Below, piece after piece: positions 6,386 to 63,735 of a stretch of 64,000 nt of DNA (position 1 is the stretch's first letter; each line of letters begins with the position of its first letter). The translations under genes were made by a program, and so were the position numbers. Source of the stretch: Phoronis australis (taxonomy: Eukaryota > Animalia > Phoronida); contig NMRA01000008.1 in assembly GCA_002633005.1 (NCBI GenBank), positions 1,769,174 to 1,833,173 on the forward strand, in the 5' to 3' direction. Below the pieces are notes generated by a model, which saw nothing but the letters and a program-made list of their open reading frames with translations, was not told the DNA's origin and searched no databases.

Positions 6386-6407
6386 GTATGCACCTGTTGT
6401 GGCTAAA

Positions 6408-6553
6408 ACACGGGCGGCGCACCTAACGGAACTGGGGGGCTATAGCTTCCCCCACTTTTTCAGTGCTGCCCAGCCTATGGTCTATGGGCAGTGCACCACA
6501 GGGTGGCTGGGGGGCTATAACCCCCCATTTTTTCAGTGCTACGCCGCCCGTGT
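6408..6553. mobile_element. Short non-autonomous TIR element (MITE-like)
   Basis: Terminal inverted repeats acacgggcggcg ... cgccgcccgtgt. Internal duplicated unit ggggggctata(g/a)c..cccc..tttttcagtgct. Confidence 0.65.
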
Positions 6554-6659
6554 AAAGCTGCCAGGTATTTTAGTCTTTCTAATTGAAGAAGTATCCTATG
6601 CCTTCGTGTGCTGATTGGTTGGTTATGTCACCAGTAATCTAGATGTGGAAGTACAAGCC

Positions 6660-21710: not shown

Positions 21711-22629
21711 TTTGTGTTTTTGCTTCTTTGACCCCGTTATCGTTAGAAATTTCAGGCAATATTTCCAATTTCTATTTATTATTATTACCGAGACCACGGA
21801 TGAGTTAATCCATAGTACAAACTATTTCACTGTCCAGCAGCTTCTATAATTTTACAATACCACAAAAAATGAGATTTCATGTTAAAATTTGACACTGATT
21901 TTGAGCGAAAACTGATGTGCCCGACTTTTAATCTATCAGAGTAGGAATTGTTTAAACTACATTTTAGTAATATAACATTAGAAAGTGAGCTGCAACGCAT
22001 AGTATGATCCAAATACGTGACATAGGGTATATCACCCATTTATGATTTTTTGTCTGGTCGGAAGTGCACTGCATTCTTAAGGTAGGAAACTGGCAAGTTT
22101 TCTCATCGGAATGTGTGAATGAATGAGCATACGAAAAACTTACGTTCATTGCACTGTAGTCATGATATGAATAAAAGAATGAAAAGAAAAAAACAAGAAA
22201 TTACGGTTTTAATATGGGTGTGCCGTCTATATTCGTCTTTTTATCCGTTTTATTCATAAAACATACATAAAACATACTTAGTCGGCACGCATCAAATTTT
22301 ATAATGAACACGCGGTTTACTCCGTGGATGGGCGGACACAGGTTATCGCTGACCGGTGTTTAGTAGCTTTCGGTGCGACGATAGACTGAAGACTGGTTCG
22401 AGTTAATCACTTTATTAACTTCGGCCCCACGTACTCAAGTCTACTCGAGCAAAACGCACTACGTAATGTCTGTTCTATGCTCCAGCTAGTGCTGCAAAAC
22501 CTTGACCAAGGGCAGATCCAGGATTTTGAGTTGGGGGGCGGGGCAGAGTATTAGCCAGGAATTTGCCCGTCAGACACTTACACCCCGAATTACCAAATTT
22601 AATCTGGAAGAATTTTAGGGGGGGGCATN

Positions 22630-27909: not shown

Positions 27910-30900
27910 ATGAAGCTACATCTTACGAGAGAGCTCTCGTTGTCTAAAAAGAGTTCGTGCCGTGCTGTGATGGCCAGCACGTCGACAGAAAACGGCGATA
28001 CGCCAAATTCCCACACATTAGGGGAGCCCGATATGATGAAACCGGGGGTTATCTCCACACCTTCTGAGGCCCAGAGGAGCGCGGATGTTGGCAAAGGAAG
28101 TGAAGAGATAAATAATTATTTGAAAAAAATTAAAGATTTGACGGATGAAAATCGCAAGATGAAATCCGAAATGGAGATGATTCAGAAAGACCGGGACGCA
28201 AAGAAACGTCAAGTTAGAGCTTGGCGTAACAAGTCCCGTAAGTGTGTAAATTATTGCACCATCTGATTGCACCAGACGTTCACCAGGCCATTTGTTATAA
28301 TTGTCACTAGTCACGTCGATAACTGCTACTTATAACGTAACTGAAAAGAGGCATAACGATCTAAGTCATCACAGACAAATAATTTGTTTTGATAGTTACA
28401 TTACTAACGTCCGTTAATTTGTTTACACTTTTAGAAAACTTACGGGACAAGCTCGACGAATGTAAAAAGGATATGGACCTGATGCATAAACGTTCACTTG
28501 AAAATTATGGTAAGTAGCATGCAACGAGTGGGCTGCGAAGTACTAGTACAAGGTATTAATCAAGTGACTTAAATGTGCATTGCTCATTGGCGGACATTGG
28601 TGTATGTTGTTCTCTTGAAGATATAAAAACAACAGGGATTTGTTTCAGTTTGTCTATAATCTCGAAAGATAATCTTCGGTTAAATGTTTTTAACCAATTT
28701 CACGTGCTCTTCTATACTCCTATAGATGAAGTCGTAGCTAAATACGAAGACGAACAACAAAAAGTTCAAGGACTGAAAATGACCCTGGCGTTGACGCAAG
28801 AAAGGTTAGAGGAGCAGACGACAGTTATTGAGCAAATGCGCACAGGTATCTGATTTTTGGTTACTATGTTTAATCTGTGAGTGCGTAACTATGGTGAGTC
28901 ATCGAATCGCAGCGACGAACACTTAATACATCCGCACGTTAGTGATTCTAATCAAGTCGAAATTTCGACCTAAGATTCTAGTCAAGTCGAAATTTCGACA
29001 TACAATCTATCTTGAATATACGCTATAGTAAAAAGTGCACTTTCATAAAATGTGATGTTCCTTTGTTTTTTTTTCAGCACGTGTTTCTTCGTTTTGCACA
29101 TTTTAAATAATTTCGAATAAATTAAGACCTCATCTGAACCATACATCAATAGATTTTTCTGTTTTTGCACGAACAAGGCGTAGCAAAATACGACCTCATG
29201 CTGGACTTTATAACTGTCTCTCCAAATACACGATACTACAAAAATGCAAGTTGCTGGATGCAAACCTTCTAATCCCAAACACGTTTCGCTGTATTTGTGT
29301 AGCTTAGACAAAAACTCCCCAATCCATTTTCCTAGCGTGTAAATTTCTGTTCGCAGGTCATGACGCTAAATCCGAAAAGCGCGAGCTTCAGGTGGCGCTG
29401 GCGACGATGACTCGTGAAAAGCAAAATGAGCTGATTACAAGAGAAGAGATAACGCGAACAGGTACTTCAGTGATTTACGCGTCTCATTAAGATGCATAAT
29501 GGTGTGTCGCACTTCATTATTCCACGACAAAAATGAATGGCGAAATCATAGTCTATTACAAAAGACGTTTGCTCAAGAGCGGTGATAATATATGTGAATC
29601 TGTATGTTTGGAAATTTTGTCGACTTCAAAAAAATGTTACTCCTGTGGTAGTTGCTGGCGGAAAAAACATTGAAGTAGCTTTGCGTCAAATTATGAATAG
29701 ATTCTGTTGCTTTTGATCGAAGTGTGTTTAACTTGGGAAATAAAATGATTAAAAACGAGATGTTTCCTTGCAGGAGAACTCGGGTCGCAAACAAGTGTCA
29801 ACAACAAATTCACTGGAGACATTAAAACTGTTCTAGCCGAAGAAAAAGGCCAGTGTCGAGCTGTAGATGCCACAGACGATGCGAATACTAAACGTCTACA
29901 ACAAACAAATGGCTTCCACTTAGCTTTGAGAAAGAACATGGAGAGAGTTGGCAAGATGAACGATCACTTAACTACCCTCACCCAGTCAGTTGAAGAACTG
30001 ATACCCGAGTTGTTCTCAATGTCCAAGAAGTGCGAAGTTCAGCAACACCTCATTGCTGTGCTAGTAGCGAAAAATGCTGCCTTAGAAGCGGAGATGTCAT
30101 ATCTTGCTTTCGAAAATGTTGCAGATGAAAACAGCAGTAAGTTCATGTTAGGAGCCACCATTATTTGGGCGTTATGTAGAGAGATGGAAGTCAAGAAATC
30201 AAACGGTGTGATTCACCGCATGAACCAACAGCTGGGACGGTTGCAACAAAATCAAATAGAGCTTGAGAAGGAAAATCAAGAAAAAGGTTACGTCATTGAG
30301 ACGCTCCAAAGGTGTCAGTTTGAAACGAAGAAGCTCAAGCCTAATACCACCATAAGAGAGGGGGCCTTAAGTGAAAGGTGTGAGAAAATAAATCACCTGG
30401 TCAATGAATTAACTGAGTACAAGCGCCACGCGAATGACTTACGTGAAGAACTTGAATTGCGCTCTCGAGAAATTAAGGAACTAAGTCAGAGCCAGCGCGT
30501 ACAAAATGTGCAGATAGAGAAACATGTGAGAGACATTATGGGCCTGAAAGAGGACAATTGTCAACTGAAGTCCCAGATGGAGACTCTTCAGGAGCATAGT
30601 GAAGGACTGGATCGCCAAGTTGGAATTTGGCGAGAGACGGCCAGTAAGTTTCACAAGAAAATGTTCAGTGTTTATGGCATAGGCTAATGTATTTTGCAAC
30701 GAATATCACACAATGTCAATACAAATACGTAAACCCTGAGCACATAAAACAACACGAAATTGACGTAGTATGAGCATCGTCAGAACACACAAAATTTGGG
30801 AGAGATTTGAAAACTTGCTATGGGAAAGCGTGTTATTGCACACAAGTGCTACAACGTATAAAATGGTTTAAAATTCGATCCGTTAGTCATTCCGATGATT

Positions 30901-42425: not shown

Positions 42426-42944
42426 AAAACACTAAAACAACCAAACGCGCGCCAACCAAACAACGTCAGAATTCCTAGATAACAAGGTTATGATTGACAA
42501 ATCGGATGTCGTAAGTGTACGTACTCCCGCTCGCAAGGACATGCAAAAAACTTCTTAAACGGGCGCATCTTCGCTGGCGAATTCCATATCCACATTCATT
42601 CAAACGGAGACGAGCCCCAGCTCGGGATACGTGGCGAGACTGTCTAGCTGTGCTGTCTCAAGGTCAATGCTCACGCGCGGGGAAGCATTGCTGACTGTTA
42701 TTTCTATTATACACATTTTCCAAGTTTTAATATTACAACTTCAAAGACTATTTATTAGATTCTAACTTGAACATTTGCTACGAAAGCAGAATACAATTTA
42801 CAATAGTTAAGCTTAAAATAAAACTATTAACAAAAAGTAATTGAATTACTTTACATTGCGCAAACGTGTTTTTACAAAAGTTGCGTTATGTGGTTGAAAG
42901 TTTTAGATCGTTTTATGGTTCATGTGAGAAAACAAATCCTACAC

Positions 42945-44177
42945 TCGTCTCAGATTGATGACATGGGCAAAACCTGGAAGGAACTCAAGAACTTGGGACC
43001 TCAGCTCAAGAAGAGACATGAAAATACTATTCCTTCAGAAAGATGGGAGGCCAATTTCAGAGATTTGTTTTCGAAAATTCCAATGGCTGAAAGTCAAAAC
43101 ATAGATGATTTGGAGAAAGCAATGCAATATTCTGAACTTTCGGGTAATGTAAAAGAAGTACTGGAAAAAAGTTTTTCGTTTTTTGAAGTCTATTCTGTTA
43201 TTCGCAAATTAAAATCACGTAAGGCCACTGGTATAGACGGTATCCCATACGAAGTGCTGAGATCTCCAGAGATGGTTAATATTTTGGTCTCGCTCTTTCA
43301 GAAGGTCTTTGACACTGGATTTACCCCATCATTATGGTATAAAGCGATTATNNNNNNNNNNNNNNNNNNNNNNNNNNNNNNNNNNNNNNNNNNNNNNNNN
43401 NNNNNNNNNNNNNNNNNNNNNNNNNNNNNNNNNNNNNNNNNNNNNNNNNNNNNNNNNNNNNNNNNNNNNNNNNNNNNNNNNNNNNNNNNNNNNNNNNNNN
43501 NNNNNNNNNNNNNNNNNNNTTCAATATTTAAAATTATGGAGAAGTGTGACTTTTTAGAAAATTTCAGGAACAAACAAGTTGTGTCTCTCGAAAACTTCAG
43601 AACATTCAGGTTCCAGTTAGAAGAGTTAAATTGGTTAAAAATAATCACTGAGAAACCAAAACTGTACTTATATAGATCTATTAAGAATGACTATTGTGTA
43701 GAAGAGTATTTACGTCTGCCGGTGTCTCAGAGGTCCGTCATAGCTCGATTGAGAGCAGGTATTCTACCATTAGAGGTTGAGGTGGGGCGGTACTTCGGAA
43801 TTCCTGTGAATGAACGGATTTGTCGTGTTTGTAAAAAAGGAATTGAAGATGAAGTTCATTTCATTTTTGATTGTGAAAAATATACTCACATTCGACCATA
43901 TTTTTTACGGCGTTCTGCCCTACCTCAAATATTCCAAAATAACTTGAAAGGTCTAGCGAAATTCATTCAAGACGCTTTGCAGGTTAGAAGTAATTGTTTG
44001 TTTATAAACTAGTCTGAAGTGGTCATATTTGAGCTTGTGCAATTTGTTATGTAATGATTTAATTATTATTAGGTGACTGAGTAAGCCCATTGAGGCTGGG
44101 GGGTGTGGTGAATAATCTGTCTTTGATATTGTATTTACTGGTACCCTTATGTGACTATAATAAATAAATACACACAC
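42945..44177 (+). mobile_element. LINE ORF2 (RTEX-like) spanning an assembly gap, with C-terminal Cys/His motif and 3' tail
   Basis: LKSRKATGIDGIPYE (pre-RT region) and RLRAGILPLEVEVGRY..ERICRVC..IEDEVHFIFDC. The tail aagcccattgaggctgggg..actataataaataaa recurs at ~48685-48752. N-gap at 43352-43519. Confidence 0.85.
43352..43519. other. Assembly gap (Ns)
   Basis: Run of N. A second gap lies at 57328-57400. Confidence 0.99.
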
Positions 44178-47100
44178 CTCAAGGAAATTTCCAGGAGGTT
44201 TTGCCCATATCATAAACCTGAGACTCGTGTAGGATACTCTATCTATCAACTGGTGACACCAGCTAAAATTCACGAGACCAGTCATGCTAGAATAGTTTCC
44301 CATATCAGACATTCAGCTACCGCTTACAACACTTCGCCCTGTTAAGCTCCATCTTTTGGCCATTTTGTGCTTTCCATTGATTAATCACAGTCATTCACTC
44401 TTAGACAACGGTGATCTTTTCTTTCACGTTTTAACGTGAAAAAAAATATTAAAATATGTTTATTATTCAAAGTCAGTTTAGCAAGTGATATTTTGGCGGA
44501 GTAATACACTCGGCAACTCTCGGAGACTCTGTCTTCTAGGTGGCCAGATAGCAAAAGTAAAGCGTAGGATTGCGTCATTGTAATTCAAAAGAGGAACGCA
44601 TTGTTTTGACTTCGCAAATTTTGTTTGTTTGATGAGAAAATCAACGTGCATGGCTGTATTTTTACCGCTAAAACATTTTAACGGTCAACAAAGTCGGTGT
44701 GGGTTTGATTGCAAACGAACTTGTAAGTATTCGTAGCCGTTGCAGTTGCCTGTTTCACACCAGAGCAATGAAAAAATACACTTACAGATCTAGGATGCTT
44801 CCCCTTGAATTTATTATATTTTCAAGAGCTTGAATTAGCATAACCCCTTGAGATAAGGTCTTTAAGAATAGAGATTTTCAGCTTGTTATATCCGTTTTGA
44901 TGCAGAAAACTTTCGTTGACAAGCAGTTATTGCTTGGCTCGATCGTGGGAGAAAGCTTCACCGGACATCAATTAGCTATTAAGATTTCTGGAGGTTTATG
45001 GGAAAGCTGAGGTTGCTCGGTGAAAAACGAGAACATGGTATACAATATTTCGTGAGCTTCTTACTGAGATAGCAAGAAATGACACCTGTAAAAAGCAAGT
45101 AAACATACAATGGACCAATCACAATGTGTCAAGTGAAAAATTGACCAACCAAGGAGCCACCTTGGCCAAAGTGACTCAACAATGAGTTAAAACTGCATTT
45201 CGCCGTTGTTTGGCTGTCAATGTGGAATTTTGAACTGAAGCGTATTGGGTTTATAACACTTCCGTCATTCTATTGTCTTGATTTTGTGCTGAATGAGGTG
45301 GCAACTCAAGTCACTGCAACAGTAGGCGTACATGCGCCATTTTCGAATTCGCAATCTTGGCGTTGGCAAACCCTGGCAAACTCTATGATGTTCTTGCTGG
45401 GAACGGAAATAGAACCCTTTCACGGTTAGGAATATCATAAGACCGATGTTATGCTTGATTCAATTCTGGTTATTAAGGTAGCTAAATAGGGTCAAACAAT
45501 AGGCCATGTGATGTTAATCAAAAACGACACGTCCAGCAAGACGATCTTTCACGATAGAGAACTACGCTAAGACGGTAGTATCTATCAACAATTAAAAATG
45601 AAACAGAAACAAGCATAATGAAGTGTCAACCAAACTAGCGACACCTATAAAGCAAAAAAAGAAATAGTTGCAGAACATTGTCTCTATATAATCATTCAAT
45701 GGCAATTTGCGAGGGAAATTTTTAGTGTTTCACATTGGTAAAACAAATAAACACTTTCGAATATTTTAAGAGAATTTCCGTAGCTCATAAATAGCTCTTG
45801 TAGCCGTCTTCAGAGGAAATTACTGAAAACATGAATAGGAGGATGTAGAAAAAACAACGCTGATGGGGCCGGAACTCAATATATTTATCTCTAACTCTAA
45901 TGAGCTATAATACTACAGAAGATAACTTCGAGTAAATATAACAGCCCAAAAGATAATTCAAATGAAATGCGCACACATGATAACGGAATAACGAAACTAA
46001 AACGTAAATTAAAGAACAACTGGTTACTCTCAACGTTAGAAAATTTATTAACAATTGACAAAAGACGTCACCGGATGAAAGCATGAGAAGCGTTTTGTTG
46101 AACTATGAAACTGATGAAACACGCCAGTTCACGTGGGAAAATTTCGATGTTTGTACATTAAAGTGTGTGTTGTGACCCTAACAGGAACCACTTGGCATTT
46201 ATTGATCCAGAACTGCGTCACTTGTCAGGTTTATTACTGTTTGAAAGTTTCTCCACTTCATTTCGGGGTTGTAAGCCTGGCAGTGTACTAGCGACAGATT
46301 GATTTGAGGGATATTTTGAGATTTCATTTTTGTACAACGCCAAGAAACAGTGAACCCTTACAAGGTCCATTAGCACATTGACATCAGACGCTGATCACGA
46401 ATTTTACTGTCGAACAACCCCAACGGTTACAGGAGTTGCTTTTGAAGAACAAACTTTATTCACGTTTAGGTCCGCTGTATTTAAAGAACATCTCACGTCT
46501 AAGGTAAGAAATGTCAGTAAAAAGACCACCGCAGACGGAGAGTTGCGACTTGAGGTGACCGCCTCAAGTGAACGATAGCAGAGCTGATAGTTCACGTCAA
46601 GGCGTGAACATAGACAGGCCCTATTTCATTCAGTTGTTCTCGCCTTAGCATGAGCTGTCAGCTCAGCCGTTTTTCACTTGAGACAGACAGCTCAGTTCAT
46701 ACCTCTCTGTCTGCGGTGACCCTAGCGATAAATTGTAACAGCGTCACCGGCCGCAACACTGACAAAGAGTGTAAAGTAACTAGGCGCAGAAAACATTTGA
46801 TGACCGAGGGGAGCGGCGAACCCGTCAGTGTCAGGCATCTTGCCGACCACGCCTATTTTATGGGGAAAGAAAGTAGGAGAGGGTACCGACATTCTTCTCT
46901 AGTTAATGGAACATTTCAATGATGTTGAGCTGTCAATGTTGATTTCTAAGCCGAATCACTTTGAGGGTATACACTCATCCGATCTTGAATTGTTGTCAAA
47001 TGAGCCGGCAACTCAAATACCAACCGTTGCCCGTGAAACTGCGCTCGTAAATTACGCTCAGGATTCTGTAAGATCTTACACATTGAGTCAAATATCTACA

Positions 47101-48465: not shown

Positions 48466-49587
48466 TTGGTCTGAACACAGTTTATGTTTACAACAGTAAT
48501 TAGCTGAATTTATCTATACATTCACTTAACATGTAGTTATTGGTAATTTGATTTAGGAAAACTGACAACTCTATATGGAAAGTTACAAGAAAACTAACAA
48601 ACTATAACTTCAAGTGAAATACATACAAACGTAGTGTGTATTGCGTATAACCGCTTACATGTTTTATTTGAATCAGGGGACATGTAAGCCCAAGAGGCTG
48701 GGGATATATAGTATTCTGTTGTTTATCCATGCCACTATAATAAATAATAAATATGCAAGAGATAAACATTACAAGATAAAAGGACAAAGGATAAACAAAA
48801 TGGGTACTTGGTACTCTTTTTAATACCACAGAAATGTTTAATATGGCAGAAATAAACAGTGACGGGAACATCATAGAAACGACAACAGCAATCAGCTATG
48901 TTGCACTCAGAGTTGTAATAACTGTGTGGTAAACAATAACATAAATTGAAAACCTGAAGTGACCGGGCTAGTTGTGGTTTTCCATGGAGCAATTTCAGGA
49001 TAGCGATCACTAGTCTCAAAAGGCAATTCGCTGAAGCAATCTCGTCAAAGTGGGCGGTTCTTGAGACAGAACGCTGTCTTCGCAGGGCTGAGGAATCGCC
49101 TGTCCTAGGGTTAAAAGATGGGGGAATTTCGGAATTAACTGAACAACATATTGCTGATCTTGTAAAGAAGTTTCAAGCAAACAGAGTTTTTTTATTTCTT
49201 AATCAGGTTTAAGTTTGGATTTCTACAAATGTTTTTCGTGTGAGCGTCAAACTCACTGTGGATTACATGACGCAGGGCCCATTTTTTAATATTTTTGGTC
49301 GATCTAGTTTATTAATGCCCCACACACAGATGCCATTTTCAGTAAATAATAAACTGTTGTTCGAATGTGACCAAGATATTTTTCAATGGCGGCATATCAC
49401 CACATGTTCCAGGTGGTCTTAGAACGTTCGATATAAACAAACAAAACCGTCCAGTAGAGGATGACAAGCTTTAACAAGGTAGTCCCACTAAGCGGTAGAC
49501 GCTGTGTGGATATGATTTCATGTAAGGAAGGAGTGCGAATTTAACCGCAGTTAGAAACTAATTCATTGTTTTTACAGGATTTGGAAG

Positions 49588-50696
49588 ATGAAGATTTTTC
49601 TGTCCTACGTCTTGCTGTGGCTTGTTCTTTGCGGCACCAGTTCAGTATTCCACATATCTCAAGCAGACGCCTTCAGCCTCGATAGACATTCCGGATGGGG
49701 CAAACGAAATTCGAGGTTCTCATCACCGCACACAGGCTGGGGGAAACGCGACGATATTTCCAACAGTTGCCAGTTTCTGGATAGGAGCATCGAAGCTCTC
49801 GTCAACGAAATGCTAGAGGTGATTTTTATATACACTGCTAGAAATCAGAATTGAGCTTGTATAGCATTCGAAACATTACAACATGTATATGCTGTTACTG
49901 GCCCCTGCTTAAATAAACCCAGAAAAAGATGATTTCTATGTTCAAACTTAGATCGACAAAATGAAATTCTCGTGTTTTTCTGAGGGTAGTCCCATGTCGT
50001 TAAATAATGCGAATTTAACGTTTTTATTTCGCATTTGACAATGCGCTATCTAATATTCTATCGACCACTTTGGTCAGCCGTCTTCAAAGGTCTAAAAGTG
50101 TCGAGAGGGCCTCATTTCAGTTACAGCGGTCCGCACGTAGACACTATTACGGAGGTGTTCCCTCCCCCCTCGGTCGAAACTCGTTTCAATTTTGCGTTGA
50201 GTCCCCCCCCCCCCNTCCTTGTAAAGTACGTCCAGGTGGTCACTCGTTTCAGCTCCCCTCCCCTCACGGCCCGAAGTTTCGTGTTTGTTCAACCCGGATT
50301 CTGGCTTCGCCCCTGGCGGTCCTGCATGCACTTTGTATTTTAAGTAATTAAAATTAAAAAGAAAACCACAGCACTATCTTTTACATCAATTTTAGTCCCG
50401 GAATAGTCATTTAGATGTTTTTCCGGTATCTATTTACCTTGGTGACGAAGGTCATAATTCTTTTATAATCAGTATTCAAAAATATTGAAACCATATATTT
50501 CTTTTCAAATTCTTGATGGTTACATAAACGCATTGCATGCTTCAAGTAACGGCGGTGTGAATTCTTGTGATTGTTCATGAATTTCGAGTTAACTTTGAAA
50601 TCTTGTACAGGAAGTGGCTTCATGGCAGAATTTATTCTATTTCAGATAGAAGATAAACGCCAACGACTGTGTCAAGGATCGGAGGCAAACAAGTGA
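49588..50696 (+). CDS. Neuropeptide precursor (93 aa), GnRH/AKH/corazonin-superfamily-like, two GWamide peptides
   Basis: Exon 49588-49818: MKIFLSYVLLWLVLCGTSSVFHISQADA-FSLDRHSGW-GKR-NSRFSSPHTGW-GKR-DDISNSCQFLDRSIEALVNEMLE. Phase-0 intron (GAG|gtgatt ... ttctatttcag|). Exon 50646-50696: IEDKRQRLCQGSEANK*. Has a signal peptide, two amidation/dibasic GKR sites and a two-Cys helical associated peptide. AATAAA at 50946 and 51058. Confidence 0.88.
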
Positions 50697-51492
50697 CTTT
50701 GAAACAGACTGAACAGCACCCTGTATAAATTGCCACCTTCCATGATTCCTCATGTAGATGAAGACGTAAAACCGAATAATTTGCATGTACATGTATACCC
50801 AGTCTCTAGTCGTCAGTTATATAAAGCAAAGCCGTCCTTGTGCTACCAGGGTGGAGTTCAGTAACGCAAGTGTCTCGCTCAAAAAAGATCTCGCGAGGTT
50901 CTGCGAGATGTCGTCATGTATTTTAAAGGAACGCAAGTGATTTTGAATAAAATTTCTCGCTGTGAGACAGTAATTGAATTCGACCCAGGACTCCTTGAAA
51001 GAAAGGCGTCATGTTGCTGATACCACACGGTACAATATTCACACAAAAATCCAAAGAAATAAAAATGTTAACATATAGTCGGCTGGCAAACATGCGTTTT
51101 TATGAATTTGTTCACTGAACTATCCGAGAGGCGGCGGGCCATTCAAACATTTAAAGTTGCATTTTCCCCAGCTTAACTGACTGAAAAACGAAAGTCTAAT
51201 TAGGCCTTTTACTCTCTCAAAATCGGTCTCGTATTATTCCTTGCCATTCTATTTCCGGCACTAACGAGGACATCGACTCAAGAAAACGCTTTTAAGCATT
51301 TCTTGATTTAAAACAGTTTATTGGGGACGGACAACCCTAAGATTGCGGATTCGAAATGGAACGTGAACGCATTGCCTGCGACTTGAGTTGCCGGCTCATT
51401 CGGCAATTCAATATCGGATGAGCCCGGTAAAGTTAGGTCGATAGACCTTCGGTTAATAATTCAGCAATGTCAGTTTAACAGGGACAAGAAAA

Positions 51493-51605
51493 GGCAGTGT
51501 GGCCTAGTGTGATAGGTGCCCGCCTTCTTTACTCGAGGTCGTGGGTTCGAGTCCTACTGGGCCACAGTGCTAGATCCTTGAGTCAGGTTTCTAGCTCCCC
51601 ATCTC
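51493..51605 (+). mobile_element. tRNA-derived SINE fragment
   Basis: A-box tggcctagtg and B-box ggttcgagtcc, followed by a tccttgagtcagg CORE-like segment. Does not form a complete cloverleaf. Confidence 0.6.
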
Positions 51606-52644
51606 GGTTTTAATTATATAATAATCATAAAGCACAAAAATCGTTCCAGATGATTAGTGCAATGGGCCCACATGCGCGGCCGTAGGACGTCTGGTACAAC
51701 GTGTATCAGACCGCCTGCAATTTTTTTATAAACTGGGGCAAAATGCAACTTTAACTGCTTAGGAAGAAATCAAAGCGTGTTCTTATTAAACACAAACCAT
51801 GCAAAGGTGCGAACAAACATGCAATGTGTATTCATCGAATATACATTGGATAACCTAATAATAGATAAGCTCGAGCCTGTGTGCAGTTTTTTGTCACCAC
51901 TAAAGACTGAAACGAGACATAAGTTACAAGCTTTTTGATTTCCATTAAAGGAACATTTTCTTTTTATACACCCCTAAAACCCAAATCATAAATCATGTTG
52001 GTGTGGCGCAATCTTTCCATACCGTGATGAACAATAGTTGAGCCCCAAACATACCATACTGGGCACACGGCAGTTAAAAAGCAGTTTGAGAACATCATCT
52101 TCTAAGATTGATTGTCTTCCACAGTTAAACCATGTTAAGAGAAGGTCGCGAAAAAGCAAGACCATGCAAAATCACGGAAGTGTTTGGCGGGTGTGCTCAG
52201 GGCGCCTAGCTAGCGTACTCGGCCACTGAAGGGACCGGTCGCTGAGGCTGGAACGTTGGTTTATAGAACAGAAGTCACTGCTCCCTTTCCACAAGCGAAG
52301 ACCTCTTGCCGGCAGTGCTTCTCGAGTGTCCTGCTACAGAACGCAACCCAGTTTGTTCCCGGTACAGATCATCAGTCCAGAATTCCAATGTTTTCTTAGT
52401 AAACCGGAAATCCCCTTTCATTAACATGGGACCACTCTTTGTGAAAACTAATGTCGATTTTACGAAATTGTTGCTCGGATTGATCGAGAGGAACAATAAA
52501 TCTTGGGTCTCTTTCTGGAATGTGATACCGATTTCAGTGTCAATCAGGGAGAACGCGTGACTAACTTTCCCGCTGTCTTCAATGCAGAAATGTCGGGTTG
52601 CTGCTATTATTCCTTATCACGTTCTTGGAGTTCACGATTCTCCT

Positions 52645-53327
52645 CTAAACCTCTGCTCTTGTCCCATTAGCTGCCTTCTGGTTGTTAGAATTTAATGATG
52701 TCATGTCCAGTTGATGAGCTGTAGATGATTTCCTACGAAGCGAAACTTGTGTAGTTATCGTTGATTGGCGTCGAACAGCAACGTGCAATCCGAGCGCTTT
52801 TTTAAATGCGTCGCGGAATTTAGAGGATATGACATTGTAAATGATGGGGTTAATGGCCGAGTTGACGTACAACATAACTTTTCCAAAATATTCCAGACTC
52901 AAGTGACCCTGGAATCCAACCTGTTCTATATCTTCTAGTGGTGCGTAGTTATTCCATAAAGCAAAAACTTTCTGTGGTAGCAGGCAAACGAAAAACAACA
53001 AGATGACACTCATTAGCATAATCACCACTTGATGGCGCTGCCTGATGTTTGCCGATGTTGCAGAATCGCTACTTTCGTTCTTGCGGAACACGTGTGGATC
53101 CGACAAAAGCTGCCGGCTGATCAGTACATAAAGAACAACCAGTATTACCAATGGGACCGCAAAGAATAGAACTAAAATCAGTATCACGTAGACTTCTTTC
53201 CAGTTCCACTTGTCGCCGAGGTCACTAATACAGATTTTGACGTAAGTGCCATCGTAGTATTCCACGCCAAGTTCTTGTGAAATGAATAGAAAAGGGAAGC
53301 AGCTGGCCAGCGCAAGGCACCATACGA
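52645..53327 (-). CDS. ETHR: Class A neuropeptide GPCR, ecdysis-triggering-hormone-receptor-like: terminal exon (TM4-TM7, C-tail)
   Basis: Acceptor gtttatatttcag| then VWCLALASCFPF, EYYDGTYVKIC (ECL2), LFFAVPLVILVVLY, RHQVVIMLMSVILLFFVCLLP, MLYVNSAINPIIYNVISSKFRDAF. The motif pattern matches ETHR as I recall it. Phase 1 fits the exon at 59842-59693. Confidence 0.85.
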
Positions 53328-53589
53328 CTGAAATATAAACCAATCATGATAAAGCAGGTTGCTACGGAAGCGCAATAGTGCTATTTTGAAGTGAATAAAA
53401 ATATTTTATTATCTGGCGGCCGGGTTCCGTCAAAGAAGCGAATTTTTGATTTAGGCTACTTATTGGTTTCGACTTGTTCTTTATTAAGGTGAAAAGTAAT
53501 TTGTGGATTTTCGAAGAGCTGACAGTTCTTTCATCCTCGTGACCACGTTGGGTGCATAAAGTGGCAGGCTGTAACAAGCCAGCTCGCAG

Positions 53590-54720
53590 AACCAGGGGCC
53601 TGTTACGTGAAAGATTTAGCAGAACCACCTTGGAACCGCAAAACCGTGTGGAAATTTGTTGTATACTTATCCGAGGTCAAAGGTTACGGAGCTGTCTCTC
53701 AAATCGAATCTCCCGCCAGGCACAGAGCAGTTCCGCATGTACTCTCAATTTTTTTTTACCGAGTCGCCATAATATTTCGTCAACGACGTAAACATATGAT
53801 ACAAAGATGCCGGGGAAAACGAAGGGAAAACGTAGCTTTAATCCTGAGAGAGTTGTGTATCTGCATGGAAATAGCTATTGAGAACGAATGCTACGAGTCG
53901 TCTCACGCCTCTGTGGCTTAGTGTTCACGAACACAGCAAGATGTGAATAGAGATAAATCATCACCCAAATTCCTTAATTCGGGTAATTTGACATTTCGCT
54001 GTTTCGGTATCATGCTCAGGACGTGCTTTAACCGCCGACCAGATTTCTGTATCCATTTCGTACTTGAGTTTCATATCTGTTTCCCAACGTGTTGTGTGTC
54101 TAACAATGAACTATTGACCTACTTTAAAGTGGACCACAATGCACCAGATTGACCCACTTAATATGTTGGCTCCGCCTGTGACCTAGTTGCATTCGATGCA
54201 TTGGATACTGAATTGGCTTAAATTAAACTTTTTGTTATAATTAAGTTAATTACACACTGAAAATTCAGATGACATTACGTGCGCATGCTGAAATAATACA
54301 CGTGGCTAAGGTGTATACCGGTGGGTTATATTGACCGAAAACAAGTTTTCACCGAATAATTAACCGAAGACCTTGAGACTTTCACCTCTCTCAGTTTTAA
54401 AATTGACTTTTTTTGGGCTTCGGCAAATCGTCTTAATTTGAACTAAGAAACACGACTTCTCGAAAACGTTACGGTGGATTTCGCTGAAACTTTCCAAACT
54501 TAATACTTATTCATCAATCTCAAAAACGTAGTATTTTTGATATCAAGGCCTAATTTTTGCGTAATGTAACAAAGACGAATACGACTGCTATTTTTTACAA
54601 AAATACCTTACGTTTTGCTAGTTGATTTGTCATAGAAACCAAATGAAAAGACTAATCGAAAATTTCTAACAGCGTTTTTGCGGTAACTGATGAAGTTTTC
54701 ATATAAAAAGGTTTCATTAA
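53590..54720. mobile_element. Non-autonomous relative of the 33.5-35.8 kb DNA transposon, inside the GPCR intron
   Basis: Collinear similarity to 33700-33810 and 35090-35770, with the middle deleted. Confidence 0.6.
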
Positions 54721-54749
54721 GATCGATCGAGTGGTTATTTTGCAATGAA

Positions 54750-56600
54750 TGTACCTTTCTTAAAAATGAGTTTTTATACATTTATTGGCAACGAGAAAAA
54801 CATTACAATACCACAAAAAGACAAAGAACACCACAGACACGCACACACACACACGAATACCCCACAACTAATCCTCTTGACTGCTAAGAAAAACCGTTTC
54901 AAAGTTACATCATCTTTTTTGTATAAATTCTAAATTCAAATCTTTACGAGCATTATACTTTTCACTCATATAATATTCTGTGATGAAGTTAAAAAATCTA
55001 CTTAGAAGTAATCTTTTTGATCCGAACTTTTGGGTATAAATAAACTGTTAACCCAATAATAAAACAATGTTTTTAAAATTTTCTTTTTATCAGCAAAGCC
55101 AAAAATAACGTCGTTGCAGGAGAGGGTGCCGACACATTGGGGATTTGCTTTATTTAGAATTTCGTTATTAACTTTTGTCCAAAATGAATTTACTGTTTCA
55201 CAGTCCCAGAATAAGTGTTTCAAAGTCTCTTTCGATTGCCCACACTTGAATTATTTTTAAAAAATGAGTTAGTAGTCAAAATTCTCGTCAAGAGTCTGAA
55301 CTGAAGCCACCTAATTCTTGGGTCTCTTGGTGTGTTATATAGAAGGGAAGAAACTTCTTCCCATGAAAAATTAGTTGTGTTTACGTTCAGTTCGTTAGCC
55401 CATTTTGACTCTGCTTTTGAGACTTTGGAACTATAATTTAATTGTGTACAGATATGTTGCCACCCTCTCCCACCGCTTTTCAGTTTCATTAAAATCGTTG
55501 GAATAACAAGACAGTACGCACCAAAACTAACAACTCTATCAATACCACATTTTTGTTGGTACTTAAACATCACTAAAATTTTTCTAGAATATGTTTCGAA
55601 GGTTGTGGCAAGGATATCAGAAGATGTACAATTTTTGAAGCCGCTGGCGCCTTGATTACTGTAATCCTTCCGAAAGGCGTCAAAATTCTTTTGGACCAAT
55701 TTTTCAAAATTAATTCAATATCTTTTAATTTCGCCAAGTAATTCTGATCTGCCATATCATGTAAGCTGACTTGGAAATTAATCCCCAAGAACATGAAATT
55801 TGTTTTTGGTCCATAATAACTGTTCCCTGACAAAAATTTTTTCAGCACTGTTCTCCATGCTGCCAAACCAAATGGCTTTGTTTTTTCTACATTGACCCTG
55901 AGGCCGGAAAAATGAGCAAACAGATTTAAAACGTTTAAAGTACACCGTCAAGACGACTCTGAGCCATCTAAAATAATAGAGGTGTTATCAGCATATTGAG
56001 TTAGTAAGTATTCACGATCCATAATTTTGATCCCATTTGTATTTTTGTTGTGTCTGATCATGAGAGCCAAAATTTCCGCACAAATAATAAATAGATAAGA
56101 AGATAATGGGTCACCTTGTCTGACTCCTCAGTCTCTGTATATTAAACCAACGAGAATTTTGGCCATTAACAATAACACATGATTTGATATTTGATATTTT
56201 TGTAGAAAACTTTGACCCATCTCTTAATTGACCACTCAAAATTAAAAAAGATAGAGCTTTTTCAATAAAACTCCAAGACAAAGAGTAAAAGTCTTTTCAA
56301 AATCTATAAGAAGTAGTAGCCCAGGTATTTGGATCTTCTGGGTGTAACAGAACAGATCGTATAGCACACGAATGTTATCAGCCAAGTTCCTTCCCGGGAT
56401 GTAGCCACTCTGATCCTCATGAATAATTTTCCCTAGCACAGACTTAATGCGTTCCGCAATTGCTGCAGACGTGATTTTGTAGGTTACATTGAGAAGAGAA
56501 ATAGGACGCCAGTTTTTTAGAAAATGTTTACTTTTGTCTGCACTTTTGGGAATACAGGTAATAATACCCTCTTTCTGAGTGGATGGTAGTTGACCCACAG
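54750..56600 (-). mobile_element. Degenerate L1/Tx1-clade LINE ORF2 in the GPCR intron
   Basis: LKNWRPISLLNVTYKI, IHEDQSGY, LLLIDFEK, GVRQGDPLSPYLF-like, SQYADN, WSKRILTPFGRITVIK, KHLFWDC. Several frameshifts. Confidence 0.9.
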
Positions 56601-57619
56601 CAAAGACATGAAATTTTTACTTAAAGAGTGTTAACGTAATGATAATGATAGTACATAAATATAAAGCATATCTTTATATCCAATGATCTTTTTCGTTTCG
56701 GAAAATATATATTTTACTAGTTGACAAAGCTTAGTTTTTATATACGAGTTGGAGGCCACTAAATAAGGTTCGAGATAAATTTGTTTTTACCCTCCCACTT
56801 TCCAATTACCAAGTCCGGTTTAAAGAAACAATGATGTAACTCTTTCTATCTTTTTTCTTGATTGTGAGTTCCTCTTTGACAAATGACACTTTTAATAATA
56901 TTGCTAAAAATTAACCCTTTGTTCAATGAAAATGAATAGAGGCCTAGTCCTTAAATTAGGGGGATTGCGTGAAAAGATCACTATTACTTTCAGTAATATT
57001 GAGAATTCAAGAAGAGCCCACTCTCGATTTGTACCAAAGATAAAAAAGACTAAAACAGGATAAGAAATGACAACCAGTGTTTTCCCAAGTCCATAAATAC
57101 GCAGTAGATTTAGGGAACTTAAAAGTGTCCCTATCTGGGACCAGTGGTGGATCTAGGATACCATAAGGGGGCCCAACACGTTGCCTCGTGGAATCGGGCA
57201 AAGCACAAATGTATTCGCACAGATGGCCTGAAAGTTCCAGGCCTGGGGATGTGGACCTTCCGTTAGGGAAACCCTATCGTTAGACTAAAAAAATAAAAAA
57301 ACGTTTTCGCCGCGACCTCGGTCTGACNNNNNNNNNNNNNNNNNNNNNNNNNNNNNNNNNNNNNNNNNNNNNNNNNNNNNNNNNNNNNNNNNNNNNNNNN
57401 CCCCCCCCCCCCTAAATCCACCTATGGGGACTGTTTCATGCAATCGGTCACTCGTCTCTCTAGTAATAACGAACTACCAGCTCTTTCGACCCAAGGAGAA
57501 GCGGTCTAAATCAAAAATTTTTTTGCGATGGAGGGCGAGTTTATAGTCGTTCTAATGAATGAAACATGTCAATCACTTGTTACATCAGAGCTTTCGAAGA
57601 GCTTCATTTAAGTTAAAAC

Positions 57620-57930
57620 ATCATAAAACGAATTTTAACGCAAGTTACTTCAGTCCAAATAATGCTCATTCAACACAACTTCAAATATTTTCAAGCTTAA
57701 TAACTGAATTTGATATAAATTTTAGTTTAATTTTTATTTTGGTGGTGTACCGCCACCTAAAATGGCCGCCTTATTGAGTCACAGCTGACTCGTGCATTAT
57801 GGGTACTCACTCAACTGCCGCCGAATGTAATGAGGTTCCGCTGAAACCCCGCTCACTTTTTAAAAGTACTTTAAAAATCAATAGTGAAATATGACAAACA
57901 CAAGCAGGGTTAAAAGTAACCAAACGTTTG
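57620..57930 (+). repeat. Dispersed repeat also present at ~12765-13010
   Basis: Shared aataatg(c/t)tcattcaaca..attttcaag..ccacctaaaatggcc..aatg.ggttccgc.gaaac.ccgc. Confidence 0.65.
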
Positions 57931-59692
57931 TACTTTGGTGATATCTTTGACCTGATTAAAGTCATCGTGTGTTCTCAATTCAAGCGGTGAATGTGGATGA
58001 ATGAGTATCTTTAAAGAAACAGTAGACAAAGAGTTACCTCCATTTTCGGTGTTTAAACATGAAGCTTTTTATACGGCGCTTTATTTTTCCTAATTTCTCA
58101 GGATTACACTGTAGACAGAGTGGAATTCGTTATTTGCTACTACGACTCGATTTATTTCTTGGTTTTACTTGACTTAATGACTACCGTATATGGCTTCAAA
58201 TCACCCACAGGTCAGTGTCCTGTTTGTGACTTATTTCGCCATTTGCACCCAGACACTTCATTCTCGGGTCTATCTGAAAATACAATGCCGTCGTGCCCTG
58301 TTTTTACATAATAAAGTGCTCCTTATTCCATTCTTGCCTTCCAACTTAGTTTTATCAAAACACCAGTCTTAACCTTGAAACAACTTTCTTTTGTGCAATC
58401 TTATAGTTTCTGTTATCTTTCGCACCCATGTTCCTTACCCAGAATTCCTTGTGTTAGCTCTCAAAGACTGAATTATGTGCGCGGGAAAGAAAAAAAATGT
58501 CATGAGAAATAAAAGATCAGGACGTGGTTTGTGGGTACAAAATCCATTAGCTGTGACCCAGGAAAAACAAACTGCATCTTTTGTCAAATCGCTATGTGCA
58601 GTCGTCTCATAACGCACTTCAAGTCTAAGAAGAGCCCCTGGCAATGACGTCAGTACACAATTCCCTGTGCATGTGTTTAAAATCTCGAGAGTTTTTATAA
58701 TTACCATGCATTATTAAGAATAAAAGTGTCTGCAGCTAATCCGTGCTAAATCAACTTGCCCTCTTTAATTAATCGAAAACACATCACGTGGGAATTGAAC
58801 TAAGTATCGCGCTTTGTTTTTCATTTCTATTCCGGAGTCAAAGAAGCTGCTACTCGAAGACAAATGCGACGCAAAAAAAACAATGCGCAATTTCTGGTAG
58901 AAGCCACATATTTGGATTTTAGTTTTTTATTTTATTATTCAATTGCCGTCTGTTGTGAGAATAACTACAACTTTAAAGCGTCAGCACGCCGCCACTAAAA
59001 AGATTTTTCAATTTGTAGCCAAGCACTATATGGTGATGTAGGCATGTGATGGTGCCGCCAGGTAGGTGCTTGCTCGACCTTAGCCTACGAAAATCCGGGC
59101 AAGCCACTCGCTTAAATAATCGAGAACAAATCGGGCTACTATACTTAGTGACATGCCTATGTCGCACTAGATAGGTTACGGTAACCTGTTAGAATTTATT
59201 GGTGCCCGACCAGAAATTCAAAAAGTAAATTTAAAATTATGTGTTCATTTTATTTTGTGAATATCTGATATCAGAGAGCATTAATTAAGAATGCGACTAA
59301 CTGTTTTGTGTTGAATTCGTTTAACGAATTTACCTATAATGGAGGGGGAAGACGTTCCTATCGACAGCTTTGTACGGCGTTCACTTTTCGATTTATGAGA
59401 AGGCGAATAGGAAGTCTGATCAACAGACAGATTATCGAGCTTTTAAAGTTGGGAGATCCGCCGCCTAAGGGCGCACGATAAAAAGGCAGATCAGACGCTC
59501 AAGAGCGTGGCTTACTCGAGGTGTGAATTTTTCAATGGCGCGGATCATCGGACAGCAGCTATCGATCTGCATACTTTCTGACCGGACAGTATGTGAACGC
59601 TGCATCAGTTTTGTGTCTACGTTGCGACAACACAAAGGAGACCTGTACCTCTGGCGGTGTGAATGTGGCTTTATAAAGCATCCATTACTCAC

Positions 59693-59842
59693 ATGTTATG
59701 ATCTTGACTGTTCTGCTCACGGTACATGTGTACTGAGCTTGCAGTGGCCGACAGATGGCGTAGTAGCGGTCAAATGAAATAGCAATGATAACCAAAACTG
59801 AAGCATGTGCAACCGTGTTTTCGAGAAGGGCGACGATTTTAC
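59693..59842 (-). CDS. ETHR: ETHR-like GPCR internal exon (TM3, DRY, ICL2, start of TM4); not in the ORF track
   Basis: cctctatttcag|(C)KIVALLENTVAHASVLVIIAISFDRYYAICRPLQAQYTCTVSRTVKIIT|gtgagt; 150 nt, phase 1/1. It joins 53327 to give ...KIITFVWCLA. Confidence 0.92.
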
Positions 59843-62260: not shown

Positions 62261-63240
62261 TTAAAGGAGAGGCAACCTTTCTTCATGTCATTTTAGGTAC
62301 AAGTCCAGATTATCCCAGACATATCTTTCAGATAATAACAACTTACAGTAATTTTATCAATTAGTAGTCCCTTACTCCGGAAGTGAATTTCCCGTTTCTC
62401 GTTTTCTGACTTTGTGAGCTGTCGAGTCAGTCATTGTTTTATCTTGGTTGTCGTTTGCGTTTGTTTACGAGACAGTCTACATGCCACACGGTTGTTGTGT
62501 ACCGGGGTGTACTGATTATCGTCTCACGCGCACTTTGAATACGTCATTACACCGCTGTCCAAAAGATGACACGCCCCGCCGTACTTGGCTCTTCATGTGA
62601 AAAACGCAGCCTCGCCCTCCACACAACGTAATCAGTGGAGAATAACCGCCTGTCTGGCAAGCATTTTCTGCCGTTGGATAACGAAAGAAATATGTGCACG
62701 GAAATGACAAATTTCTTGCAAAGCAACGCTTGAAGAAAGTGCCAAACGGTCGCTGTTGATTTCCGTCAGTTCCCCGTCGTCACCCCCGAGAAGTGCATTT
62801 TTGAAACGAGTACCCTCGCGAGCTGTAACCTCTTCAATGACTGCAAGCCCTTCATCTACTGTCACCCGTGCCTCCGAACGTACCCTCAGCACGTGCAATT
62901 CCTGGAACTAGTAGTGATTCGTCCTGTACTGGTGTTGTCTCCAGCCCAGAGCCTTTAAGCAGTCCTGCAGCGATGTTGTGTAGTGGAAGGGCCAAATTCG
63001 ACACCCAGAGAGAAGGACAGTTCGTCGTCCAGTGATCAGGCGGGTGAGCCAAACTTTGATATGTTTATTGTGGACTTGAATGAAGTATTGGAGCTATTTA
63101 GGAGGTGCCTTGTAGCGAGGGAGTCACACGGCGAGATGTAAGCGATTTGGGTGCTCAGGTCACCATCTATTGGGAAAAGCATAGGCATTCCATTGAGATA
63201 GAACATACAGTGTTCGTGTCGACGGCGTACTTTCAACTTT
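62261..63240 (+). mobile_element. Degenerate THAP-domain DNA transposon, Kolobok-like left arm
   Basis: TTAA|AGGAGAGG terminus at 62261. ATG 62481 gives MPHGCCVPGCTDY..SLHRCPKDDTPRRTWL* and a frameshifted RLSGKHF (THAP pattern). Later MFIVDLNEVLELFRRCL..GAQVTIYWE resembles the Kolobok transposase N-terminal region. Confidence 0.6.
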
Positions 63241-63249
63241 ATCCCCTTT

Positions 63250-63735
63250 ATTTGTAAACGCAGGTGTACTGCAGGGTAGCGTATTGGGCCCTCTTCTCTT
63301 CTTGGTTTATATTAATGACCTTCCTGATAACCTGTCATGTAGCACATACCTTTATGCAGATGACACGGCGCTTTTTTACCCCTCCGCAGGGAGCAATCCT
63401 AAAAGTTCTTTGCAGCTTCAACATGACTTAAATAAACTCAGCTATTGGTCACAAGAATGGAGAACGAATTTCAAACCAGAAAAAAAGCGTTGACCTCGCC
63501 TTCTCTAAATCTATTAATGCTCTCTTACTTATTGACCCGTCCTATGATCTTAAACTTAATTATGAAATCATTCCAAGAAAACAGTCGCACTGACATCTCG
63601 GTATACTGTTAGATGAAAAACTCATTCACACCTCACGGTCGGGAGCTCGTACAAAAATCTCAGGAACTAATTAACCCACTTCAGCTTGTCTCTCATCATA
63701 TGAATTCTACACATTTAGAAGTTTTGTTCAAATCT
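63250..63735 (+). mobile_element. CR1/L2-group LINE RT fragment, same family as 5790-6385
   Basis: [49 protein letters not shown], then frameshifts. Confidence 0.85.

What the first reader, a model, noticed from the sequence alone, without database searches (positions are those of the whole stretch)
49588..59842. Neuropeptide precursor lies tail-to-tail with an ETHR-like GPCR: candidate linked ligand-receptor or pathway pair
Seen: a two-peptide GWamide precursor (+, stop 50696) and a peptide GPCR (-, stop 52645) are convergent about 1.95 kb apart, with candidate polyA signals at 51058 (+) and 51322-51317 (-). No other host gene is evident for many kb around them. Known: arthropod ETH receptors bind PRXamide ETH peptides, ETHR orthologues outside arthropods are to my knowledge largely orphan, and in Manduca corazonin triggers ETH release. 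Inference: either (a) FSLDRHSGWamide/FSSPHTGWamide are unexpected ligands of this receptor, or (b) a corazonin-like gene and ETHR, two members of the same ecdysis cascade, sit in ancient microsynteny in an apparently non-arthropod animal. Chance adjacency remains possible, because GnRH-superfamily peptides normally use GnRHR/CrzR-type receptors.
Basis: partly seen in the sequence, partly recalled or inferred. Interest (0 to 1): 0.85.

Follow-up and report, generated by a model that had tools for sequence, protein, structure and literature searches.

The report
RGWamide-type gene beside ETH receptor gene
A transcribed neuropeptide gene, likely a divergent RGWamide/APGWamide-type precursor rather than corazonin, lies tail-to-tail with an ETH-receptor-like gene, but the two are probably chance neighbours that use different partners, so the pairing is ordinary.

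Summary
Both genes are real and converge with 1,948 bp between their stop codons. RNA reads show the 93-residue precursor spliced in three exons on the + strand. The receptor is weakly transcribed on the - strand, and its TM1-TM2 exons are not in the window. The receptor is an ETHR orthologue. The precursor is probably not corazonin. It has two GWamide copies and no leading Gln. Its two-Cys tail has a phase-0 intron at the same codon as 3 of 4 published RGWamide/APGWamide genes, and 5 of its 6 library hits are RGWamide-type precursors. RGWamide has its own known receptor in another GPCR clade; the proposed spiralian ETHR ligand is the PRXamide pleurin. Gene-number proxies in three spiralian genomes show RGWamide/APGWamide and ETHR genes not adjacent. 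Some precursor-GPCR neighbour pair is expected by chance 0.1-0.7 times per genome (assumed gene counts). No 3'UTR overlap was seen, and a high-copy repeat lies between the genes. Verdict: chance adjacency of two new family members; cognate pair about 5%. Residual interest: unusually extended GWamide peptides on a tail also shared with spiralian GnRH-type precursors.

The parts
46277..46503 (+). 5' non-coding exon of the precursor gene (start approximate)
   Evidence: RNA joint 46503/49579 in runs X5 and X6; 6 molecule ends at 46277
49579..49818 (+). Precursor exon 2: ATG 49588, predicted signal peptide, both peptides, first Cys (49768) of the C-terminal domain
   Evidence: hydropathy
49672..49707 (+). 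Peptide 1, FSLDRHSGW plus GKR; may be trimmed at the single Arg to HSGWamide (predicted)
   Evidence: sequence; aligns with the DKRRGWGKR units of RGWamide precursors
49717..49749 (+). Peptide 2, FSSPHTGW plus GKR (predicted amidated peptide)
   Evidence: sequence
49819..50645 (+). Phase-0 intron, 17 residues after the first C-terminal Cys and 9 before the second (counts include each Cys)
   Evidence: RNA joint; positions; same position in Mizuhopecten, Notospermus and Capitella genes
50646..51063 (+). Precursor exon 3: second Cys at 50670, stop 50694-50696, 3'UTR to about 50950-51060
51492..51727 (.). High-copy interspersed repeat, SINE-like (inferred), between the two genes
   Evidence: DNA depth above 50,000 against about 45; loose read ends at both borders; no tRNA called
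52645..53327 (-). Last coding exon of the ETHR orthologue (TM4-TM7, C-tail, stop)
   Evidence: sparse opposite-strand RNA reads
55002..56616 (-). Broken LINE fragment inside the receptor intron
   Evidence: RVT_1 E=3.4e-12
59693..59842 (-). ETHR orthologue exon encoding TM3, the DRY motif, ICL2 and the start of TM4; phase 1 at both ends
   Evidence: tblastn 50-69% identity to relatives; splice ends

Best explanation
The locus holds a transcribed, spliced neuropeptide gene, likely a divergent RGWamide/APGWamide-type precursor, next to an ETHR orthologue, and the two are probably unrelated neighbours. The precursor is predicted to be secreted, cut at KR (and perhaps single R) and amidated, giving HSGWamide or FSLDRHSGWamide plus FSSPHTGWamide. 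These would act on an RGWamide-type receptor of the protostome RFamide/Wamide clade encoded elsewhere. The ETHR orthologue would respond to a PRXamide-type peptide such as pleurin. Shown: gene structures, transcription, receptor family, intron position. Inferred: peptide processing, family of the precursor, both ligand-receptor pairings, chance origin of the adjacency.
For: Exon-2 search of 1.84 billion representatives gave 6 hits, 5 of them RGWamide-type precursors (Urechis RGWamide, Capitella CAPTEDRAFT_100873, three unnamed with 4-6 matched stretches) and one bacterial chance hit. Independent of the repeats, the Cys-to-Cys domain matches Urechis RGWamide at 7/26 identities, shuffle p=0.0016; the first 17 columns against four precursors give combined p=0.016. 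Two Cys 20-30 aa apart plus a phase-0 intron between them define the family in PMC8557429 section 11. The 17|9 intron position equals 3 of the 4 splice patterns printed in its supplement 20; Lingula differs. The RGWamide receptor is known from Platynereis and lies in another clade. Pleurin is the proposed ETH-like ligand (PMC8398477 passage). Not adjacent elsewhere: Capitella ELU14209 vs ELU04429, on records of 374,783 and 233,704 bases; Notospermus g26977 vs g20072 and g12435; Patinopecten PY_T17384 vs PY_T14610. Chance expectation is 0.13-0.7 precursor-GPCR neighbour pairs per genome, of which 0.003-0.007 cognate (assumed counts). Human ligands lie no closer to their receptors than chance (PMC1309615 abstract). 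No reads at 51181-51454 in the two better-covered RNA runs.
Against: The phmmer hits are weak (E 5e-6 to 6e-4) and mostly driven by the GWGKR repeats. Three of the four single shuffle tests gave only p=0.03-0.07. The peptides are longer than RGWamide/APGWamide, and there are only two copies against 8-10 in the four hits counted. Spiralian GnRH-type precursors share the same Cys register and match as well by eye (5-8/26, against 6-9/26 for RGWamide/APGWamide), so the tail does not separate these two families. The synteny test uses gene numbers as a proxy for position and covers only the ETHR paralogues I saw listed. No close relative of this animal was checked. No pharmacology exists.
Confidence: 0.7

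Rival explanations
1. The precursor is an atypical GnRH/AKH/corazonin-superfamily gene that has lost pyroglutamate and duplicated its peptide. It signals through a GnRHR/CrzR-type receptor, and its place next to ETHR is chance.
For: The Cys register and tail match phoronid and nemertean GnRH-2-like precursors (5-8/26 by eye). Peptide 1 may follow the signal peptide directly and both peptides start with F-S. A brachiopod GnRH-1-like peptide ends in Wamide, and amphioxus corazonin starts with Phe without Gln (PMC4923880 passage). Atlas feature neighbours include GnRH precursors at 0.90 and corazonin at 0.88, next to PrRP, spexin and galanin, so they are unspecific.
Against: 23 of 23 corazonin/GnRH precursors are single-copy and Gln-initial. 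The four corazonin tails counted match only 3/26 ungapped (by eye). Deuterostome corazonin genes have two coding introns; this gene has one. No Pfam hit at E<=0.1.
Confidence: 0.17
2. The GWamide peptides are the cognate ligands of the adjacent ETHR orthologue: a linked ligand-receptor pair that would deorphanise a spiralian ETHR.
For: Adjacency at 1.95 kb. ETHR orthologues are orphan outside panarthropods. The peptides are atypical for their family. Both genes have reads in the same two RNA runs, X5 and X6 (bulk samples, depth about 1-3 for the receptor).
Against: RGWamide has a known receptor in another clade. ETH and pleurin are PRXamides. About 1-2 in 100 chance neighbour pairs would be cognate. 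There is no general tight ligand-receptor linkage in human. The linkage is absent in 3 of 3 genomes by gene number.
Confidence: 0.05
3. The pair is a conserved microsyntenic or co-regulated block (shared enhancers or antisense 3'UTR overlap) without being ligand and receptor.
For: Convergent orientation; both are neural signalling genes; about 1x receptor-strand reads in run X7 at 50770-51043 and 51318-51454.
Against: Not adjacent in Capitella, Notospermus or Patinopecten by gene number. No reads bridge the gap in X5 or X6. A high-copy repeat sits between the genes, and the stray X7 reads may come from repeats.
Confidence: 0.05
4. The adjacency is an assembly mis-join through the high-copy repeat at 51492-51727.
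For: The DNA run's listed contigs end at both borders of the repeat and none bridges it (606 pieces not shown).
Against: The repeat is only about 235 bp, and unique depth is similar on both sides (37-45). Contigs are expected to break at such repeats.
Confidence: 0.03

Closest known systems
Spiralian RGWamide/APGWamide precursors (Capitella CAPTEDRAFT_100873, Urechis QUP52002.1, Mizuhopecten AXN93473.1, Notospermus g26977)
   Same: GW-G-KR units; two C-terminal Cys in a 26-residue span with no peptide between them; phase-0 intron 17 residues from the first Cys.
   Different: Only two copies; N-terminally extended, non-identical peptides with His-Ser/His-Thr before GW; 93 aa against about 115-280 aa.
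Spiralian GnRH-type (GnRH-1-like and GnRH-2-like) precursors
   Same: Short precursor, peptide near the signal peptide, same Cys register in the tail.
   Different: Those are single-copy and Gln-initial, most with residues after the Trp; their intron position was not checked.
Corazonin precursors
   Same: Two-Cys tail of similar span in brachiopods and nemerteans; amphioxus peptide is Phe-initial and ends in Wamide.
   Different: Single copy, Gln-initial in spiralians, tail register shifted by one (3/26 by eye); two coding introns in deuterostomes.
ETH receptor family (insect ETHR; Lineus XP_064630050.1, Owenia CAH1784475.1, Priapulus XP_014674100.1, Capitella ELU04429.1)
   Same: About 39-48% identity over 230-285 columns for the 30 best hits; 196 bits to a named Anticarsia ETHR against 108 to a fish TRHR.
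   Different: No close relative (best 44-45%, unnamed P0036); ligand unknown outside panarthropods; N-terminal exons not in the window.

Membership tests
RGWamide/APGWamide precursor | Multiple GWamide peptides in the N-terminal region | tested here: met
   Two GW-G-KR units; fewer and longer than typical
RGWamide/APGWamide precursor | Two C-terminal Cys 20-30 aa apart with no peptide between them | tested here: met
   Cys61 and Cys86; definition in PMC8557429 section 11
RGWamide/APGWamide precursor | [quoted passage not shown] | tested here: met
   RNA joint 49818/50646; 17|9 position equals 3 of 4 printed splice patterns
RGWamide/APGWamide precursor | Canonical short peptide (RGW, APGW, RPGW types) | tested here: inconclusive
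   Predicted peptides are HSGW or longer forms; published members vary (Lingula, Novocrania); processing not shown
RGWamide/APGWamide precursor | Activates an RGWamide-type receptor | not testable with these tools
   Needs a receptor assay
Corazonin precursor | [quoted passage not shown] | tested here: not met
   13 of 13 listed precursors are single-copy and Gln-initial; this one has two peptides and no Gln at a plausible cleavage site (judged by eye, no SignalP run)
Corazonin precursor | Two coding introns (deuterostome corazonin genes) | tested here: not met
   One coding intron against PMC4923880 passage
GnRH/AKH-type precursor | Single Gln-initial peptide | tested here: not met
   10 of 10 listed; no Pfam hit at E<=0.1
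GnRH/AKH-type precursor | Two-Cys C-terminal domain in the same register | tested here: met
   5-8/26 identities by eye with four GnRH-2-like tails; shared with RGWamide, so not diagnostic
ETH receptor orthologues | Closer to ETHRs than to TRHR, GHSR, NMUR or motilin receptor | tested here: met
   21 of 22 hits at 116-202 bits against TRHR at 49; best PDB chains NMUR1 52, GHSR 51, motilin receptor 50 bits
ETH receptor orthologues | Supported clade in a tree with full outgroups | tested here: inconclusive
   28-row tree had one outgroup (TRHR); the window row sits among non-arthropod rows at 82/66, not starred
ETH receptor orthologues | Activation by a PRXamide peptide | not testable with these tools
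   Needs the full cDNA and an assay
Conserved ligand-receptor or pathway microsynteny | Same gene pair adjacent in other genomes | tested here: not met
   0 of 3 genomes by gene or accession number; proxy only, paralogues may be missed

The most novel reading that the evidence does not exclude
The two extended GWamide peptides are the native ligands of the adjacent ETHR orthologue, which would deorphanise a non-arthropod ETH receptor with a Wamide rather than a PRXamide. A milder and likelier novel reading (about 0.2): the precursor is a structural intermediate between GnRH/AKH-type and RGWamide/APGWamide precursors, supporting their paralogy. If the animal is a phoronid (not determined), both genes would also fill gaps reported for that phylum.
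Probability: 0.05. Interest if true: 0.75.

Novelty: new member of a known kind. Interest (0 to 1): 0.27.

Why it matters
As it stands, this adds a divergent RGWamide/APGWamide-type precursor and an ETHR orthologue from a probably spiralian animal. Three distinctive motifs of the precursor and one of the receptor were absent from the supplement of the 23-species survey PMC8557429. The extended peptides on a tail shared with GnRH-type precursors are a useful data point for the debated APGWamide-AKH/GnRH relationship (PMC10730642 abstract). If the peptides did activate the receptor, the open question of what non-arthropod ETH receptors bind would be answered, and the assay is cheap. The genomic evidence makes that outcome unlikely.

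Tried and rejected
The word-indexed search with precursor exon 2 found 0 hits among 5 candidates at E<=10. The atlas search of the precursor gave generic neuropeptide-precursor neighbours; that of the coiled-coil ORF gave generic coiled coils and did not place the animal. Rfam, tRNA and tandem-repeat scans were empty. The run search listed no RNA holder. Run X8 had no contig on the precursor's coding exons or the receptor exons (not evidence of silence). For Crassostrea, 4 of 10 occurrences of gene numbers sharing a prefix with its ETHRs were shown, none RGWamide- or corazonin-like by eye, in a file cut when stored: inconclusive. The Lingula RGWamide gene number was not found. Complex prediction was not run because the peptides are under 30 residues and the receptor lacks TM1-TM2. 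Three look-ups of earlier findings returned nothing. Literature searches for a precursor gene next to its cognate receptor (0 papers at 4 of 5 terms), corazonin/ETH receptor/synteny/pleurin (2 papers), RGWamide/APGWamide with ETH (6 papers) and phoronid RGWamide (3 papers) showed no report of this pairing in the listings or the passages read; the library lacks most subscription journals. The corazonin identity was rejected for the reasons given. My recollection that de Oliveira et al. 2019 (eLife) named pleurin as the ETH orthologue was wrong: that paper has no occurrence of pleurin and found no eth orthologue outside panarthropods.
Full report
Observation. The + strand holds a 93-residue precursor: ATG at 49588, coding exon to 49818, phase-0 intron 49819-50645, stop ending 50696. 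Stranded RNA reads span this intron in all three raw-read runs (16, 32 and 3 reads). They also reveal a non-coding first exon near 46277-46503 in two runs. The N-terminus is hydrophobic (no SignalP was available). The GW-G-dibasic motif occurs twice in the whole window, both times here. The - strand holds two exons of a rhodopsin-type receptor, 59842-59693 and 53327-52645, with canonical ends and an open joined frame of 276 aa. tblastn with 22 relatives found no TM1-TM2 exon in the window. The stops are 1,948 bp apart. Precursor reads fade near 50950-51050, matching AATAAA at 50946 or 51058. Receptor-strand reads are sparse (depth 1-3, 52277-53235, 2 of 3 runs) and do not reach the candidate signal at 51322. 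A repeat of about 235 bp with DNA depth above 50,000 lies between the genes, and no listed DNA contig bridges it. About 18-19% of each RNA run was read.

The receptor. The last exon hit 22 of 931 candidates. Of these, 21 scored 116-202 bits, mostly arthropod proteins with mixed automatic names, including Pycnogonum Ethr and Anopheles AGAP002881 (labelled ETHR in a supplement); a fish TRHR scored 49 bits. The best solved structures, NMUR1, GHSR and motilin receptor, scored 50-52 bits. A profile search gave 240 hits among 7,993 candidates, 120 listed, several named ecdysis triggering hormone receptor, plus Lineus, Tubulanus, Owenia, Capitella, Liolophura and Priapulus proteins. The joined fragment scored 233 bits to unnamed P0036, 196 to Anticarsia ETHR and 108 to TRHR. 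In a tree of 28 rows (27 chosen from 137 stored receptors, one outgroup) it fell among the non-arthropod rows at 82/66, which is weak. I take it as an ETHR orthologue from a probably spiralian animal; the phylum was not determined. Such receptors are orphan in lophotrochozoans (PMC8557429 section 15), and no eth gene was found outside panarthropods (PMC6660194 passages). Pleurin, a PRXamide, has been suggested as the ligand (PMC8398477 passage).

The precursor. HMMER over 1.84 billion representatives gave 6 hits: 5 RGWamide-type precursors (two named, Urechis and Capitella) and a bacterial protein. These hits lean on the GWGKR repeats, so I tested the tail separately. The 26-residue Cys-to-Cys domain shares 7 identities with Urechis RGWamide (shuffle p=0.0016). 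The three hits that run into the intron gave p=0.03-0.07 over 17 columns, and all four combined gave p=0.016. Those three show Val at position 18, as expected for read-through of a GT donor at the same place. PMC8557429 (section 11) characterises RGWamide/APGWamide precursors by multiple peptides, two Cys 20-30 residues apart and one phase-0 intron between them. Its supplement 20 puts that intron 17 residues from the first Cys and 9 before the second in Mizuhopecten, Notospermus and Capitella, as here; Lingula differs. Ungapped identities counted by eye on printed sequences were: RGWamide/APGWamide 6-9/26 (four of the listed tails), GnRH-2-like 5-8/26 (four tails), corazonin 3/26 (four tails). 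The tail is thus shared with GnRH-type precursors and fits corazonin least. The peptides decide between the first two: 23 of 23 listed corazonin and GnRH precursors carry one Gln-initial peptide, whereas this one has two tandem GWamides. Deuterostome corazonin genes have two coding introns (PMC4923880 passage); this gene has one. Against my reading, the peptides are longer and fewer than typical RGWamides, and they echo a brachiopod GnRH-1-like peptide and amphioxus corazonin. A link between APGWamide and the AKH/GnRH family has been argued before (PMC10730642, abstract only).

Is the adjacency meaningful? [quoted passage not shown] In Capitella the RGWamide gene (ELU14209.1) and the ETHR (ELU04429.1) sit on records of 374,783 and 233,704 bases. 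In Notospermus the numbers are g26977 against g20072 and g12435 (the latter two judged ETHR-like by eye from likeness to Lineus P0004). In Patinopecten they are PY_T17384 against PY_T14610. This assumes that gene numbers follow position, and it misses unlisted paralogues. Corazonin-ETHR and GnRH-ETHR linkage was not tested. With assumed counts of 40-70 precursors, 40-100 peptide receptors and 20,000-25,000 genes, 0.13-0.7 precursor-receptor neighbour pairs are expected per genome and 0.003-0.007 cognate ones. In human, ligands are not closer to their receptors than chance (PMC1309615 abstract). No 3'UTR overlap was seen in the two better-covered runs; run X7 has about 1x receptor-strand reads over part of the precursor 3'UTR, of unclear origin.

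Mechanism. Most likely (0.7) the precursor yields two amidated GWamide peptides, the first possibly trimmed to HSGWamide (its Arg aligns with the dibasic site of RGWamide units). These would act on an RGWamide-type receptor elsewhere, while the ETHR orthologue responds to a PRXamide-type ligand. Rivals: GnRH-superfamily precursor (0.17), cognate pair (0.05), conserved or co-regulated block (0.05), mis-join at the repeat (0.03). All ligand-receptor assignments are inferred.

Novelty. Both genes are new members of known families. Three motifs of the precursor and one distinctive receptor motif were absent from the PMC8557429 supplement, which reported neither RGWamide precursors nor ETH receptors in phoronids (sections 5 and 8). 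The good match to phoronid GnRH-2-like tails makes a phoronid source conceivable but unshown. Papers seen: PMC8557429 (sections 5, 8, 11, 13, 15, passages, supplement parts 10, 14, 26, 94, 213 and searches); PMC6660194 (passages, supplement searches); PMC6425005 (one supplement search; some files cut when stored); PMC6188537, PMC13551398, PMC5818035, PMC11521371, PMC8398477 and PMC4923880 (passages); PMC1309615 and PMC10730642 (abstracts). Supplement figure S9 of PMC4923880 and bioRxiv supplements were not seen; they may bear on intron positions of GnRH and corazonin genes. Final interest 0.27.

Noticed in passing
window 10700-15625 (-): Likely multi-exon gene with Thr/Ala-rich mucin-like exons, a SEA-like exon (judged by eye) and Cys-rich exons; no Pfam hit for the three frames scanned.
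   Followed up: partly
window 27877-30687 (+): Coiled-coil ORFs in several exons, the largest 312 aa; no Pfam hit; atlas gives only generic coiled-coil neighbours.
   Followed up: partly
window 5730-6614, 22603-24723, 42831-44012, 55002-56616, 63197-63493: Broken LINE/reverse-transcriptase fragments; RVT_1 confirmed for four of the five regions, 42831-44012 not scanned.
   Followed up: partly
window 51492-51727: Very high-copy SINE-like repeat with a B-box-like motif (motif recalled); abundant in RNA reads on both strands.
   Followed up: no
PMC8557429 supplement parts 14, 26, 213: Spiralian GnRH-type and RGWamide/APGWamide precursors share a 26-residue two-Cys tail in the same register, with corazonin tails shifted by one; suggests paralogy of the precursor families.
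   Followed up: partly
window 43352-43519 and 57328-57400: Assembly gaps (runs of N); the second lies inside the receptor intron, so the link between the two receptor exons crosses a gap.
   Followed up: no
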